Sequence record: NC_101835.1
From: a phage
DNA length: 64,000 bases
Strand: one strand, 5' to 3'
Shown here: one piece after another, positions 13,512-17,218 of the stretch
Layout of the letters: each line of letters starts with the position of its first letter
Numbering within the stretch: the stretch's first letter is position 1
Position numbers and translations under genes: made by a program
The notes under the pieces: generated by a model
The model's database searches: none
Seen by the model: the letters and a program-made list of their open reading frames with translations, nothing else
What the model was told of the DNA's origin: nothing

Positions 13512-13795
13512 TAATGAAAAAGATTAACAGTAGTGAAGTAGAGTTTAAACTTGTCGGAAAAGGCACTTACTGGGAAGTTCGTCAAAAGGTATATTTGTTC
13601 GGTCTTATTCCCTACTGGTCTAAATTCTACTGGGGAGCTAACGAGTTGGGAAGATACGCCACCAAATCAATGGCACTTATTGGTATAGCAGAGTACATTG
13701 CAGCCCGAGACAGGGTTGGAACCACTTATTACTACACTGCTGACGATATTCGTAACAGTGTTTACGTCCCACAACCACCTGATGGAGACCGTTGA
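13508..13795 (+). CDS. hypothetical protein
   Basis: Track ORF, overlaps neighbours. Confidence 0.5.
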   Translation: MIMKKINSSEVEFKLVGKGTYWEVRQKVYLFGLIPYWSKFYWGANELGRYATKSMALIGIAEYIAARDRVGTTYYYTADDIRNSVYVPQPPDGDR

Positions 13796-14019
13796 TGAAA
13801 GTTAAAGTTTTAGATTCAAGCTTCTATATTGGTCAGGAGCCTTTAGTAGGAAAAGTGTTTACTGCTGTCCCTAACGAAGATTACCCTGACCTTTTAAAAA
13901 TAAAAGGAGCAGATCTTATTGCCGCTGGTGCATCTCAAGAATGCTTTGACAGTCAGTGGACCTATAACTTTGCCCTAGGTGAGGATGTAGAGGTAGTGGA
14001 GGACGATCATGAAGGTTAA
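13792..14019 (+). CDS. small acidic protein, MKVK...VEVVE family
   Basis: MMKVKVLDS...IKGADLIAAGA...GEDVEVVED. Confidence 0.55.
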   Translation: MMKVKVLDSSFYIGQEPLVGKVFTAVPNEDYPDLLKIKGADLIAAGASQECFDSQWTYNFALGEDVEVVEDDHEG

Positions 14020-14263
14020 AATTCTTGATTCTAACGTCTACTTGGGACAATCCTTCCTGAATGGAAAGGTCGTTCCTGCGGTATACTTTGAAGGGTTGCC
14101 GTGGGATGATCCTGTGCGGCAACATCACAGTTATGTAGGCCACAACGTGGTGTTTATCTTGGGATCAGACCTGATCACCGCTGGTGCACCTGAATATTAT
14201 TTCGGGGAAGAGTCCTACTATGCCTTTGGGGTAGGGTCAGATGCAGATATTGTAGAGCTGTGA
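14009..14263 (+). CDS. small acidic protein, MKVK family
   Basis: MKVKILDS...GSDLITAGA...SDADIVEL. Confidence 0.55.
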   Translation: MKVKILDSNVYLGQSFLNGKVVPAVYFEGLPWDDPVRQHHSYVGHNVVFILGSDLITAGAPEYYFGEESYYAFGVGSDADIVEL

Positions 14264-14275
14264 TGGGTAACCGTT

Positions 14276-14674
14276 GTGAAAAATAAACTGTTTAAAGTTA
14301 CAATGAAAATTCGCGGGGCTTGGAGCGTAAAGCAAGGGCGTATTCCAGAATTTGAGAAAGACTTCTACGTAGTCTCCACCTCGGAGGAGGCTGCATGCTG
14401 GCAGGCTGGCTATGCCTATGCAAGAACCTGGTACGAAGGATACCAGACTGGGGGCTATGACGGAGAAATTATCAGCAAGGGTGTAGAAGAAATTAATGTG
14501 TTGACAAGTGAAAAAGTTTTTGTTATAGTGCATCCAGATTCCAGAGTGAAGCATTACTGGAATGCCAGAACAAAAACTTGGACACCGTTTGCAGATTCTG
14601 CTACGCCACTTTTAAACCAGAAAGCTCTTGACTCTGCCCCAAGTTATGGGGTTGTTGAAGAAAAGCTAAACTGA
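14276..14674 (+). CDS. hypothetical protein (paralog of 16486-16881)
   Basis: Shared motif V.HP.S...YW.....WTP with the 16486 ORF. Confidence 0.55.
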   Translation: MKNKLFKVTMKIRGAWSVKQGRIPEFEKDFYVVSTSEEAACWQAGYAYARTWYEGYQTGGYDGEIISKGVEEINVLTSEKVFVIVHPDSRVKHYWNARTKTWTPFADSATPLLNQKALDSAPSYGVVEEKLN

Positions 14675-14691
14675 AACAGTGAGGTGTCACC

Positions 14692-14982
14692 ATGATGGAT
14701 TTAATTCTAAATATTGATAACGCAGGAGAGTTTAAAGACGATGGTGTAACAAGCATGGACAAACCCTGCTCTGCTAAGGTTGACTCAAAATGGACCTACA
14801 AGTTTGACGGAGAGATCTTCGCAAATGATGAGAAGGTTGTAGATGCTGCAGCCATTTTAAACGCTCTAGGGTACGACCCTGTGAATTCTTTGATCAAGGA
14901 TCCTGTTGAGTTTGCAGAGTATGTTCGAAAAATGGCAGATCTTGCTGTGGATATTTTAAAAACTATCGACAACAAGCTGTAA
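14692..14982 (+). CDS. hypothetical acidic protein
   Basis: Track ORF. Confidence 0.5.
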   Translation: MMDLILNIDNAGEFKDDGVTSMDKPCSAKVDSKWTYKFDGEIFANDEKVVDAAAILNALGYDPVNSLIKDPVEFAEYVRKMADLAVDILKTIDNKL

Positions 14983-14988
14983 AAACTG

Positions 14989-15017
14989 TTGACACAACGC
15001 TTCAGATTTAGTATCAT
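14989..15017 (+). promoter_or_regulatory. sigma70-like promoter (TTGACA-17-TATCAT)
   Basis: Upstream of the HPF gene. Confidence 0.5.
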
Positions 15018-15066
15018 TGTTTTCAAAGAGAGATAGTTATTCCCTCTTCCTTAAAAGGAACACGTT

Positions 15067-15387
15067 ATGCAAATTGAAATCACTGGCAACAATGTAGAAA
15101 TCACAGAAGGTATGGTATCTTTTATTTCCCGCAAAATGTCCAAGCTGGAGCGTTTACATCCCTCTGTTAACTATGCACGTGTGAGTGTAAAAGTTGAAAA
15201 TGATCACCAGGAAGTTATGGCGTTCATTTTTGACAATTCTGGAAAAGAAGTTATTGCCAAGGCTAAAGGCAGTGATGCTTACGAGGCAACTGACCGTATG
15301 GTAGATGTTGCAGCACGTCAGCTGGCTAAATGCGGTGGAAAGAAAGGTAAGGGGAAAGGCAAAGTAAAGATTGACTTTGGAGAATGA
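15067..15387 (+). CDS. hpf: ribosome hibernation promoting factor (HPF/RaiA family)
   Basis: MQIEITGNNVEITEGM...KLER...V.VKVE closely parallels E. coli HPF N-terminus as I recall it; Lys/Gly-rich tail. Confidence 0.8.
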   Translation: MQIEITGNNVEITEGMVSFISRKMSKLERLHPSVNYARVSVKVENDHQEVMAFIFDNSGKEVIAKAKGSDAYEATDRMVDVAARQLAKCGGKKGKGKGKVKIDFGE

Positions 15388-15396
15388 GGTGCTACA

Positions 15397-15498
15397 ATGG
15401 GTGTGATTAAGAAATTAGTCCCAAATGTAGAGATTGCATGCTTTGAAATTATGTTTGCAATCGCAGTTGTAGTTAATGTGTTAGGTTACGGCTATTAA
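15397..15498 (+). CDS. small hydrophobic peptide (33 aa)
   Basis: MGVIKKLVPNVEIACFEIMFAIAVVVNVLGYGY; below track cut-off. Confidence 0.3.
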   Translation: MGVIKKLVPNVEIACFEIMFAIAVVVNVLGYGY

Positions 15499-15524
15499 TA
15501 TCAAATAATTGAGGAGACCTCTAA

Positions 15525-15794
15525 ATGAAAATTAAATTATTCCAAACTGAGCTGGCAGACAAAAATTGTGGACTGGTTGAAGGCATGATTGTTGAAGCAC
15601 AACCAGTGGACTATATGAAGGTGGTTCGTGATGCCCTAGGTGAAGGTTTTGATCTGATGGAGCCAGCTCTGCGAGAAGATGTTATCGAGATGGCTAAAAA
15701 GCACACACCTGAAGGTTTGGTGGTGTTTGTTGCACCGGGTAACGGAGAAGAGTTGATTGTAACTCCTGATGTGTATGAGATTGTAGAGGAATAA
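15525..15794 (+). CDS. small acidic protein, MKIK...YEIVEE family
   Basis: MKIKLF N-terminus, C-terminal VYEIVEE. Confidence 0.55.
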   Translation: MKIKLFQTELADKNCGLVEGMIVEAQPVDYMKVVRDALGEGFDLMEPALREDVIEMAKKHTPEGLVVFVAPGNGEELIVTPDVYEIVEE

Positions 15795-15885
15795 TCCTGC
15801 TTGGATTAGCATACTTCCTCGCTAAGGAAGATTTGTAATTATTTGTGGGAAAGGAGTCCCAATCTCTTACCAGAGGTGATACTAT

Positions 15886-16149
15886 ATGATTGTTTATTTT
15901 AAAACTTCAGGTGGATACCCTGATTCTCAAAGCTTGATCGGAAAAACGTGCACAGCATACTCACCTCTTGATGAGGAGGTAAGCGATATTTTACGAAATA
16001 TGTATCGGATTGACCCCCAAGAAGCCTTTGATCAAAACCTTGTATTTGTCAAGGGCTCAGATATGAAGTCTTTGGGAGCATTCCCTGAAGCAGATGATGA
16101 TGCCGTTTATTCGTTCATGACTCCTTTTGAAGCTATGGTTGTTGGGTGA
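15886..16149 (+). CDS. small acidic protein (counterpart of 13792 in duplicated module)
   Basis: LIGKTCTAY..VFVKGSDMKSLGA parallels LVGKVFTAV..LKIKGADLIAAGA. Confidence 0.5.
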   Translation: MIVYFKTSGGYPDSQSLIGKTCTAYSPLDEEVSDILRNMYRIDPQEAFDQNLVFVKGSDMKSLGAFPEADDDAVYSFMTPFEAMVVG

Positions 16150-16153
16150 TAAT

Positions 16154-16486
16154 ATGAAAGTACGCTTTATTGGTGAAACAATTCCTGTGCATCTCCGGTC
16201 GCCTGAGGATTCTGCAGATCTTGCATCTCAAAAGGCGAGAGGTTATGATAAGAAAGTAACCTCAACCGATGTAGTGCTTGAGGCTACTAGTCTACCTGAC
16301 CCTGCTGCATTCTTTAATCATTATGGGTACTATTTCAGCAATCTGATGAATATCGGTGAGCTTGTGTTTATTAGTGGTGGAGAAATTGTTAGCAAGCTTG
16401 GCGGCGATCCGGATATCTTTCATGAAACCTGTCCTTTTGCATTTGTGGTAGGTTCAGATGTGGAAGTTATTGAGGAGGTGCGGTAA
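16154..16486 (+). CDS. small acidic protein, MKV...VEVIEE family (counterpart of 14009)
   Basis: In-frame ATG at 16154 (track 16127); C-terminal FVVGSDVEVIEE. Confidence 0.5.
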   Translation: MKVRFIGETIPVHLRSPEDSADLASQKARGYDKKVTSTDVVLEATSLPDPAAFFNHYGYYFSNLMNIGELVFISGGEIVSKLGGDPDIFHETCPFAFVVGSDVEVIEEVR

Positions 16487-16881
16487 TGGTAAGCCTATAC
16501 CGTGTTGAGTATAGCTCAGATACTGTATACAACGTAAGAAGCAAAGATCGCAGCGACAGAGTGCAAGAAATGTATGTTCTTGCCGACAGTCCGTTATCTG
16601 CAGCGTTCAAGGCAGGGGCTCTTGCATCTCGTTGGAAATTTGAAGGTGGATCTTTCTATGAAGAAACCCTTGAAGATTCTGTTGTTATTTCTTCTGTAGA
16701 GGTTTCAGATGACTACGAAGGGAAAAAGTTCGTAATGCGGCACCCACACAGCAACATTGCGTACTACTGGGATGTTCTGAACAACGAGTGGACCCCAGAT
16801 CTTCAGAAGGCTACTGTGCTAACACCGTTTTTGGCAGATAAGTTCCCACCAGAAGGTAATTTATCCGCACTGTTTCAGTAA
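16486..16881 (+). CDS. hypothetical protein (paralog of 14276-14674)
   Basis: FVMRHPHSNIAYYWDVLNNEWTP vs VIVHPDSRVKHYWNARTKTWTP. Confidence 0.55.
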   Translation: MVSLYRVEYSSDTVYNVRSKDRSDRVQEMYVLADSPLSAAFKAGALASRWKFEGGSFYEETLEDSVVISSVEVSDDYEGKKFVMRHPHSNIAYYWDVLNNEWTPDLQKATVLTPFLADKFPPEGNLSALFQ

Positions 16882-16957
16882 TTTTCTTGCACACAGGTGT
16901 TGACAACGCCAACCCTGTGTGAAATAATACCTTCATCTTAATAAGACAGGGGACCGA

Positions 16958-17218
16958 TTGATGAAGATTAAATTGAAAAACCTTGAAACGGCAGAGATTC
17001 AGGACGGTGTTGATTTCCGTTCTAAAGATGGTGACATCTTAGAGGTAAATATTCCAACCTACGAGCTGATTAAAGGTTTTGGCAACGTTCCGGAAGAGGA
17101 TATTACAGAAATTCTTATGATGTTGATTCTTGACGGAACTGTGTTTGTAGGTGAAGGTGAGAACGCTATTGCAATCCCAGGCCATTTTTATGAAGTAGTT
17201 GACGAAGAGGTGCTGTAA
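16958..17218 (+). CDS. small acidic protein, MKIK...YEVVDEE family
   Basis: MMKIKLKN...FYEVVDEEVL. Confidence 0.55.
   Translation: MMKIKLKNLETAEIQDGVDFRSKDGDILEVNIPTYELIKGFGNVPEEDITEILMMLILDGTVFVGEGENAIAIPGHFYEVVDEEVL

What the first reader, a model, noticed from the sequence alone, without database searches (positions are those of the whole stretch)
15067..15387. Phage-encoded ribosome hibernation factor (HPF/RaiA) homolog
The 106-aa protein begins MQIEITGNNVEITEGM..., closely tracking bacterial HPF (MQLNITGNNVEITEAL... as I recall it) through the first beta-alpha-beta unit, then carries a Lys/Gly-rich tail. It has its own promoter (14989-15017). A phage copy implies direct manipulation of host ribosome hibernation during infection.
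Basis: partly seen in the sequence, partly recalled or inferred. Interest (0 to 1): 0.6.

Follow-up and report, generated by a model that had tools for sequence, protein, structure and literature searches.

The report
Known HPF homolog of rV5-like coliphages
The gene is a real, strongly conserved phage copy of the bacterial ribosome hibernation factor HPF, but it was annotated in phage rV5 years ago and published in 2019, and what it does during infection is still unknown.

Summary
Window 15067-15387 (+) encodes a 106-aa protein that passes the curated cut-offs of Pfam PF02482 (56.7 bits, cut-off 23.7) and TIGR00741 (56.8, cut-off 40.9). Its AlphaFold model has the HPF/YfiA b-a-b-b-b-a fold, with 43% identity and 1.2-1.6 A rmsd to E. 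coli HPF. A disordered Lys/Gly tail follows (residues 91-106). The promoter at 14989-15017 is TTGACA-17-TATCAT.

The window is an rV5-like Vequintavirus coliphage. The same gene sits in about 118 deposited phage genomes, labelled 'sigma 54 modulation factor', 'RaiA' or 'ribosome hibernation factor'. The rV5 RefSeq record also annotates the promoter (P144). Mizuno et al. (Nat Commun 2019) described this phage HPF and expressed it in E. coli. They found it in crude extract but not in high-salt-purified 70S/100S ribosomes, and 100S levels did not change. So the finding is already known.

- Purifying selection is strong (dN/dS 0.04-0.08).
- A 63%-identical sister lineage keeps the gene and its promoter at the same locus.
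- No close cellular donor exists among 1.84 billion representative proteins.
- Two of five conserved helix-2 rRNA-contact lysines, plus Thr53 and His55, are replaced.

The role in infection is unresolved.

The parts
14989..15017 (+). Sigma-70-type promoter, TTGACA-17 nt-TATCAT. It corresponds to P144 of phage rV5.
   Evidence: It matches 11 of 12 consensus positions. Promoters of this class are enriched about 24-fold over shuffles and all match the strand of the local genes. The -35 element is conserved in the diverged lineage L002-L005. The rV5 RefSeq record annotates it.
15055..15059 (+). Shine-Dalgarno sequence AAGGA, 7 nt upstream of the ATG
   Evidence: Read directly from the sequence. 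The Murica record annotates a ribosome-binding site at the equivalent place.
15067..15387 (+). Coding sequence of the phage HPF homolog (106 aa plus stop)
   Evidence: PF02482 scores 56.7 bits and TIGR00741 56.8 bits, both above cut-off. dN/dS is 0.04-0.08.
15067..15336 (+). S30AE/HPF core domain, residues 1-90, with b-a-b-b-b-a topology
   Evidence: The AF2 model has pLDDT of about 83-95 over residues 1-90. The top 36 Foldseek PDB matches are all HPF/YfiA/pY proteins. E. coli HPF matches at 43% identity and 1.2-1.6 A rmsd.
15337..15384 (+). Disordered Lys/Gly-rich C-terminal tail (GKKGKGKGKVKIDFGE), about 10 residues longer than the E. coli HPF C-terminus
   Evidence: pLDDT is below 50 and net charge is +4. 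The sequence varies but stays basic in the sister lineage (YSKSKGIDKRTAKWDY). Two records carry frameshifted tails. The peptide VKIDFGE was detected by mass spectrometry in E. coli expressing the rV5 protein (PMC6375957).
15397..15498 (+). Downstream 33-aa hydrophobic ORF (phrog_15151), probably on the same transcript
   Evidence: Annotated in the MaxBurger, rV5 and Murica records. PHROG match. Co-transcription is inferred from the spacing only.
15525..15794 (+). Downstream 89-aa ORF of unknown function (phrog_11868), possibly the last gene of the unit
   Evidence: It is 60% identical in the sister lineage with dN/dS 0.13.
15814..15830 (+). Weak terminator-like hairpin that may end the unit
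   Evidence: A consensus scan match only. Terminator-like sites are not enriched over shuffles in this region.

Best explanation
The gene encodes a single-domain member of the HPF/YfiA (S30AE) family. It is the HPF homolog of rV5-like Vequintavirus coliphages, and its core is closest to the short HPF of gammaproteobacteria. Host sigma-70 RNA polymerase transcribes it from its own near-consensus promoter, inside the long block of small non-structural genes. That much is shown. The mechanism is inferred as follows. The protein docks, like cellular HPF/YfiA, in the channel between head and body of the 30S subunit of vacant host ribosomes. It would use the retained contact residues (K23, K26, R29, R84, K88 and K92, where R84 is the equivalent of E. 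coli R83, which touches m4C1402) together with the extra Lys-rich tail. Because it has lost the equivalents of K80 and K89 and of T53/H55, binding is probably weaker, more salt-sensitive or differently tuned than for host HPF. The tail lies in the register where the YfiA tail runs toward the RMF site. My preferred reading is therefore a reversible, YfiA-like placeholder. It would keep idle ribosomes intact and undimerised, or easily reactivated, while the phage takes over. I do not favour a promoter of 100S hibernation.
For: Family membership: PF02482 scores 56.7 bits against a cut-off of 23.7. TIGR00741 scores 56.8 against 40.9, and the HPF equivalog model (65.2 bits) far outscores the RaiA model (22.8). 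The best solved relatives are E. coli and Vibrio short HPF at E about 1e-15. The AF2 fold and Foldseek matches agree. Function is retained: dN/dS is 0.04-0.08 among close relatives. Synonymous sites are saturated against the 63%-identical sister lineage, which keeps both gene and promoter at the same locus. Expression signals. Contact residues come from cryo-EM work on Gram-negative HPF/YfiA (bioRxiv 10.1101/2025.10.07.680626) and were mapped onto the alignments. The same preprint says the YfiA tail heads toward the RMF site, and that tail residues of the longer HPF and of YfiA contact 16S rRNA and uS7. Expressing rV5 HPF did not raise 100S levels (PMC6375957), which argues against a pro-dimerisation role.
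Against: The only published experiment found no rV5 HPF peptides in purified 70S or 100S ribosomes, although the protein was present in crude extract. The authors list genuine loss of ribosome binding as one possible reason. Seven of the 20 columns that are at least 70% conserved in 94 cellular relatives are changed in the phage protein. These include two of the five helix-2 basic contacts, and the m2G966 and uS9 contact positions T53 and H55. The protein reaches neither the HPF nor the RaiA equivalog cut-off. The tail has no sequence similarity to the YfiA tail, and two deposited genomes carry it frameshifted. No neighbouring gene has a known translation function. No infection-time data exist.
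Confidence: 0.55

Rival explanations
1. Pro-hibernation factor. The phage protein acts like host short HPF. Together with host RMF it converts ribosomes to inactive 100S dimers, shutting down translation or preserving ribosomes in starved hosts.
For: The core is much closer to HPF than to RaiA (NF007780 65.2 bits against NF007654 22.8; best PDB matches are short HPFs). R83, K87 and K91 equivalents are retained.
Against: Expression in E. coli had no discernible effect on 100S particles, and the protein was absent from the 100S fraction. A global block of the A/P site would also hit phage mRNAs. The tail is about 10 residues longer than in short HPF and lies where the YfiA tail approaches the RMF site.
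Confidence: 0.15
2. Anti-hibernation decoy (the hypothesis of Mizuno et al.). The protein competes with cellular HPF, prevents or undoes ribosome dimers, and so releases translation inhibition so that phage transcripts are translated in slow-growing hosts. This overlaps with the placeholder reading in the best explanation; the difference is that here the result is active release of translation.
For: Proposed in PMC6375957. It fits the weakened contact set (K80 and K89 lost) and the YfiA-like tail position. It also fits the gut ecology of rV5-like phages, whose hosts are often non-growing (five infant-gut rV5 isolates carry the gene).
Against: Any occupant of the HPF site itself blocks tRNA and mRNA binding, so competition alone does not free a ribosome. 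No ribosome association has been detected. There are no data on stationary-phase infection.
Confidence: 0.15
3. Exapted RNA-binding protein. The S30AE fold and its basic tail have been recruited to bind something other than the ribosomal decoding centre, such as phage mRNA, tRNA or another protein, so the protein is no longer a hibernation factor.
For: Ribosome association was negative. Several ribosome-contact positions are replaced in both phage lineages. pI rises from about 6 in E. coli HPF to 9.0-9.4. The phage clade is isolated in sequence space, at 200 bits within the clade against 62 bits to the best cellular protein.
Against: The key arginine (R83 equivalent), K23, K26 and K87 are retained and the overall surface-forming fold is conserved. 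High-salt washing is a sufficient explanation for the negative result. I recall from the Wada laboratory's work that hibernation factors are stripped from ribosomes by high salt; I did not check this here.
Confidence: 0.12
4. A functionless passenger gene or decaying recent capture from the host.
For: Two deposited genomes (Murica, APCEc02) have frameshifts in the tail.
Against: dN/dS is 0.04-0.08. The gene and its promoter are kept in about 118 genomes and in a sister lineage with saturated synonymous divergence. The closest cellular protein is only about 43% identical, so the capture is not recent. The frameshifts lie in a G/A homopolymer-rich stretch and leave the core intact, so they may be sequencing errors.
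Confidence: 0.03

Closest known systems
HPF of Escherichia phage rV5 (ORF144/gp139, YP_002003641, ABI79209) and its orthologs in Vequintavirus phages, as described by Mizuno et al., Nat Commun 2019
   Same: It is the same gene. The proteins are 97-100% identical, sit at the same genomic position and have the same promoter.
   Different: The window's allele has 106 aa with G-N-N-V at residues 7-10, as in E. coli HPF. rV5 itself has 105 aa (G-N-V). The alleles also differ at R22/H22 and V34/A34.
Short HPF (YhbH) of gammaproteobacteria, e.g. E. coli HPF (PDB 2rql, 6h4n, 6h58) and Vibrio cholerae HPF (4hei)
   Same: Both are single S30AE domains with b-a-b-b-b-a topology. Identity is 43% and rmsd 1.2-1.6 A. 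The N-terminal 16 residues are nearly identical, and K23, K26, R83, K87 and K91 equivalents are retained.
   Different: The protein does not reach the HPF equivalog cut-off (65 bits against 125). K80, K89, T53 and H55 equivalents are replaced. It has one extra residue in the b3-b4 loop, a tail about 10 residues longer and rich in Lys/Gly, and a pI of 9 against about 6. Expression from a constitutive-type sigma-70 phage promoter is shown here; that host hpf instead sits in the rpoN operon and is induced in stationary phase is from my own knowledge, not checked here.
YfiA/RaiA (protein Y) of E. coli
   Same: It has the same fold and the same presumed binding site. It also has a C-terminal extension beyond helix 2 of comparable reach. 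Ordered YfiA tail residues R95/R96 contact 16S rRNA and uS7, and the tail points toward the RMF site. RefSeq names the phage protein RaiA.
   Different: Sequence similarity is weak (NF007654 22.8 bits against a cut-off of 158; PDB E 0.02). The tails are unrelated in sequence: that the YfiA tail ends in an acidic stretch is from my own recollection of the sequence, not checked here, whereas the phage tail is Lys/Gly-rich.
Other phage HPF homologs (Cronobacter phage GAP32, phrog_8990)
   Same: They belong to the same Pfam family and are also carried by large myoviruses.
   Different: They are only distantly related (phrog_8990 E 1e-7 against phrog_12469 E 1e-69). They were not found by tblastn at E below 1e-3, which points to independent acquisition.

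Membership tests
HPF/YfiA (S30AE) superfamily: Pfam PF02482, TIGR00741 | Sequence match to the family profile above the curated cut-off | tested here: met
   PF02482 scores 56.7 bits (cut-off 23.7) over residues 3-89. TIGR00741 scores 56.8 bits (cut-off 40.9).
HPF/YfiA (S30AE) superfamily: Pfam PF02482, TIGR00741 | b-a-b-b-b-a fold superimposable on solved hibernation factors | tested here: met
   AF2 model: E2-8, H14-30, E34-43, E48-56, E61-68, H71-90, mean pLDDT 84. The top 36 Foldseek PDB hits are all HPF/YfiA/pY, with TM 0.8-0.9. This is a predicted model, not a solved structure.
HPF/YfiA (S30AE) superfamily: Pfam PF02482, TIGR00741 | Conserved 16S rRNA-contacting basic residues of helix 2 (E. 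coli K80, R83, K87, K89, K91) and the beta-sheet contacts (T53, H55/E60) | tested here: inconclusive
   R83, K87, K91 and E60 equivalents are kept. K80 becomes V (T in the sister lineage), K89 becomes G (S), T53 becomes F (R) and H55 becomes F (alignments; contact list).
HPF/YfiA (S30AE) superfamily: Pfam PF02482, TIGR00741 | Binding to the 30S decoding-centre channel of vacant ribosomes | not testable with these tools
   The published test was negative after high-salt isolation: peptides appeared only in crude extract (PMC6375957). The authors consider it inconclusive.
Short HPF equivalog (NCBIfam NF007780; RMF-dependent 100S stabiliser) | Score above the equivalog cut-off | tested here: not met
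   65.2 bits against a cut-off of 125. It is still the best-scoring specific model.
Short HPF equivalog (NCBIfam NF007780; RMF-dependent 100S stabiliser) | Promotes or stabilises 100S dimers together with RMF | not testable with these tools
   Published ribosome profiles showed no discernible effect on 100S when the rV5 protein was expressed.
RaiA/YfiA equivalog (NCBIfam NF007654) | Score above the equivalog cut-off | tested here: not met
   22.8 bits against a cut-off of 158. The RefSeq product name 'RaiA' is therefore only a family-level label.
RaiA/YfiA equivalog (NCBIfam NF007654) | C-terminal extension that occludes the RMF site | tested here: inconclusive
   A 16-residue disordered basic tail is present, but it is not homologous to the YfiA tail. 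Its path on the ribosome could not be modelled here.
Long HPF (N-terminal S30AE domain plus C-terminal dimerisation domain) | C-terminal dimerisation domain | tested here: not met
   The protein is 106 aa. Only PF02482 was found, with no second domain, and the tail is disordered.

The most novel reading that the evidence does not exclude
The phage HPF is a retuned hibernation factor. It keeps the Arg83-type anchor, has lost two helix-2 lysines and the T53/H55 contacts, and has gained a Lys-rich tail that occupies the path toward the RMF site. As a result it binds vacant ribosomes reversibly, excludes RMF and host HPF, and so blocks or reverses 100S hibernation. It might also shield ribosomes from starvation- or defence-triggered nucleases in slow-growing gut E. 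coli. That would be a viral anti-hibernation factor built from a hibernation factor.
Probability: 0.2. Interest if true: 0.55.

Novelty: already known. Interest (0 to 1): 0.2.

Why it matters
Phage interference with the host translation machinery is an active topic, and HPF-type factors decide whether idle ribosomes survive and can be reawakened. A phage-borne copy under strong purifying selection must pay its way, and knowing how would say something about infection of non-growing gut bacteria. However, the existence of this gene, its family assignment, its promoter and the obvious hypothesis are all already in the databases and in a 2019 paper. What remains open is the biochemical function, which cannot be settled from sequence.

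Tried and rejected
1. I looked for later functional work on the phage protein with nine full-text searches. Only Mizuno 2019 and Mathieu 2020 deal with it. The rV5 genome paper (PMC3606486) does not discuss the gene in its main text.

2. I tried to read Polikanov et al. 2012 for the contact residues, but it is not held. I used a 2025 cryo-EM preprint instead.

3. I looked for a functional link in the neighbours. All ten flanking ORFs match only PHROGs of unknown function and no Pfam family. The window has no tRNA genes.

4. I looked for a recent cellular donor. The word-indexed search returned only phage-clade proteins. The exhaustive HMMER search found nothing between the phage clade (200 bits) and enterobacterial HPF (62 bits). 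I therefore rejected a recent transfer, which differs from the 2019 paper's suggestion.

5. I considered a pseudogene or passenger gene and rejected it on dN/dS and synteny.

6. I considered a long HPF and rejected it because there is no C-terminal domain.

7. I did not pursue the historical 'sigma-54 modulation' function. That name comes from the gene's position next to rpoN in Klebsiella (rV5 note), and the family is now understood as ribosome-binding.

8. My first call for the small downstream ORF used coordinates one base off. I corrected this.

Full report
**What is in the sequence**

Window 15067-15387 on the + strand is an intact ORF of 106 codons plus a stop. An AAGGA Shine-Dalgarno sequence at 15055-15059 lies 7 nt upstream. 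A TTGACA-17 nt-TATCAT promoter lies at 14989-15017, matching 11 of 12 consensus positions.

The scan's loose promoter class (at least 9 of 12 positions) is not enriched in this region (17 found, 15 expected), so I tested the strict class separately. Sites with an exact TTGACA and at least 5 of 6 positions in the -10 hexamer occur 19 times in the window, against 0.8 in shuffled sequence. All eight + strand sites lie in the + strand gene block, and all eleven - strand sites lie in the - strand block.

The -35 element and its left flank (AAACTGTTGACACA) are also present upstream of the orthologous gene in a lineage whose protein is only 63% identical. The promoter is therefore very probably real. 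The one correction is that similarity to HPF spans the whole domain, not just the first beta-alpha-beta unit.

**Family assignment**

- Profiles: the protein passes the curated cut-offs of Pfam PF02482 (Ribosomal_S30AE, 56.7 bits against 23.7) and TIGR00741 (HPF/YfiA family, 56.8 against 40.9).
- Specific NCBIfam models: the short-HPF equivalog scores best (65.2 bits) and the RaiA model is far lower (22.8). Neither reaches its equivalog cut-off (125 and 158).
- Solved structures: the best sequence matches are E. coli and Vibrio short HPFs at E about 1e-15, aligned over residues 1-90.
- Predicted fold: an AlphaFold2 model (mean pLDDT 84) has the b-a-b-b-b-a topology, with residues 91-106 disordered. 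The first 36 Foldseek matches in the PDB are all HPF, YfiA or plastid pY. E. coli HPF matches at 43% identity and 1.2-1.6 A rmsd.

Membership in the superfamily is therefore established. Membership in the HPF or RaiA equivalog groups is not.

**Where the window comes from, and prior knowledge**

The region is 99.9% identical to Escherichia phages SophiaRose, MaxBurger and Murica, and 98% identical to rV5. The window is therefore an rV5-like Vequintavirus.

tblastn finds the protein in 117 phage records at 93-100% identity. They carry labels such as 'sigma 54 modulation factor', 'ribosome-associated translation inhibitor RaiA', 'hpf' or 'ribosome hibernation factor'. The rV5 RefSeq record annotates both the gene (ORF144, 'similar to Klebsiella oxytoca probable sigma(54) modulation protein') and the promoter (P144).

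Mizuno et al. (Nat Commun 2019, PMC6375957) list HPF in rV5 and five relatives, and in Cronobacter phage GAP32. They synthesised the rV5 gene and expressed it from pBAD24 in E. coli. They found no peptides in 70S or 100S ribosomes isolated under high salt, and no effect on 100S abundance. They did find four peptides in crude extract, including the C-terminal VKIDFGE.

They offer three possible reasons: wrong growth phase, true loss of binding, or stripping by salt. They speculate that viral HPF competes with cellular HPF to prevent dimers. Mathieu et al. 2020 note the hpf gene in five infant-gut rV5 phages 'as already described'. I found no later functional study. The finding is therefore already known, and its function is still open.

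1. *Selection.* Against four close relatives, dN/dS is 0.04-0.08.

2. *A sister lineage.* It is represented by P0004 (103 aa, 63% identical). It occurs on 125-137 kb contigs from metagenomes and on one contig of an E. coli assembly. It is absent from the 50,697-record phage collection. It keeps the gene at the same position behind the same type of promoter. Synonymous sites are saturated between the two lineages (pS 0.83) while pN is 0.24. The gene is therefore old in this phage group and under strong constraint.

3. *No recent donor.* An exhaustive HMMER search of 1.84 billion representative proteins shows the phage clade is isolated. Scores are 200.7 bits within the clade, and the next best is 62.5 bits, for an enterobacterial short-HPF-like protein. 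This agrees with the gammaproteobacterial affinity reported in 2019. It does not agree with that paper's suggestion of a recent transfer.

4. *Contact residues.* A 2025 cryo-EM preprint names the rRNA and protein contacts of Gram-negative HPF/YfiA:
   - the helix-2 basic residues K80, R83 (to m4C1402), K87, K89 and K91;
   - T53 and residue 62 (to m2G966);
   - H55/E60 (to the uS9 C-terminus);
   - K26/Q29.

   Mapped through the alignments, the phage protein keeps K26, R29, E61, R84, K88 and K92. It replaces K80 (V, or T in the sister lineage), K89 (G, or S), T53 (F, or R) and H55 (F). Of the 20 columns that are at least 70% conserved in 94 cellular relatives, 13 are kept and 7 changed.

5. 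*The tail.* It runs about 10 residues beyond the E. coli HPF C-terminus. It is basic in both lineages (net charge +4 and +3) and helps raise the pI to 9.0-9.4, from about 6 for E. coli HPF. Both lineages end in a K-[IW]-D-[FY] motif. The sequence varies otherwise. It is frameshifted in two deposited genomes (Murica, APCEc02) within a G/A-rich run, which may be a sequencing error.

**Mechanism**

Shown: the protein is an HPF-family protein, conserved under selection and equipped with host-type expression signals.

Inferred: it binds the decoding-centre channel of vacant host ribosomes as its relatives do. The partial loss of canonical contacts, together with the gain of a flexible polybasic tail, suggests binding that depends more on electrostatics. 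Such binding would be salt-sensitive, which would reconcile the family assignment with the negative high-salt experiment.

The YfiA tail runs toward the RMF site, and tail residues of YfiA and of the longer Pseudomonas HPF contact 16S rRNA and uS7. Expression of the rV5 protein did not raise 100S levels. For these reasons I favour a YfiA-like 70S placeholder that does not promote dimerisation, over a 100S-promoting role. This preference is weak.

The rivals are a true pro-hibernation factor, an active anti-hibernation decoy, exaptation to another RNA target, and a functionless passenger. Only the last is effectively excluded.

**Context**

The gene lies in the long + strand block of small ORFs that the rV5 paper describes as 88 mainly small ORFs served by sigma-70-type promoters. 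All ten neighbours match only PHROGs of unknown function and no Pfam family. Two paralogous families flank the gene: phrog_5009 at 13792 and 14009, and phrog_7379 at 14276 and 16486. Nothing nearby points to translation.

**Verdict**

Interest is low as a discovery. A moderate open question remains about what the protein does during infection.

Noticed in passing
window 14000-17000; records MG065635, MG065653-MG065684: Eighteen unannotated GenBank records named 'Campylobacter phage' (host Campylobacter jejuni) are 98-99.9% identical to this E. coli rV5-like phage over the 3-kb region. They look like mislabelled or contaminating coliphage genomes rather than true Campylobacter phages.
   Followed up: no
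L007 (KR698074 APCEc02) 401-706 and 857-1064; OR062528, MT884009, MT884011: There are annotation errors in public records. In APCEc02 the HPF gene is called 'hypothetical protein', and the next-but-one gene carries the label 'sigma 54 modulation factor'. Three other records label the HPF gene 'ATP-dependent protease La type I'.
   Followed up: partly
window 15337-15384; L006 (Murica), L007 (APCEc02), L008 (YN3): The purine-rich tail-coding stretch (AAGAAAGGTAAGGGGAAAGGCAAAG) is an indel hotspot. Murica has a 1-nt deletion (protein ends at 99 aa), APCEc02 has a 1-nt insertion (different tail, 101 aa), and YN3 has an in-frame 6-nt deletion. These are either sequencing errors or natural tail variation.
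   Followed up: partly
window 15088-15093 (codons 8-9): The window's allele has Asn-Asn at residues 8-9, as in E. coli HPF, whereas rV5 and most relatives have a single Asn (105 aa). This 3-nt indel lies in the b1-a1 loop, which contacts 16S rRNA near m2G966 in some HPFs.
   Followed up: partly
window 13792-14263, 14276-14674, 15886-16486, 16486-16881: Paralogous small genes flank the HPF gene. ORFs at 13792 and 14009 are 40% identical (phrog_5009), with weaker relatives at 15886 and 16127. ORFs at 14276 and 16486 are 28% identical (phrog_7379). All are of unknown function.
   Followed up: partly
L002-L005 (Logan ERR6997038, ENA ERZ16268152, NCBI GCA_012894635.1 contig AATLQU010000010.1): A distinct Vequintavirus-like lineage on contigs of about 125-137 kb has only 10-13% of a 12-kb region alignable at 81-88% to known phages. 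It is absent from the phage genome collection but present in metagenomes and as a full-length contig inside an E. coli isolate assembly.
   Followed up: partly
window 15371-15398 (+): A second promoter-like site (TTGACT-16-TACAAT with a TG extension, 10 of 12 positions) overlaps the end of the HPF gene and the start codon of the 33-aa ORF. If active, it would serve the 89-aa ORF at 15525 rather than the 33-aa ORF.
   Followed up: no
window 1-64000: All strict sigma-70-like promoters switch strand between 21005 (the last on +) and 23897 (the first on -), matching the change in gene orientation. ARAGORN found no tRNA genes in this 64-kb window.
   Followed up: no
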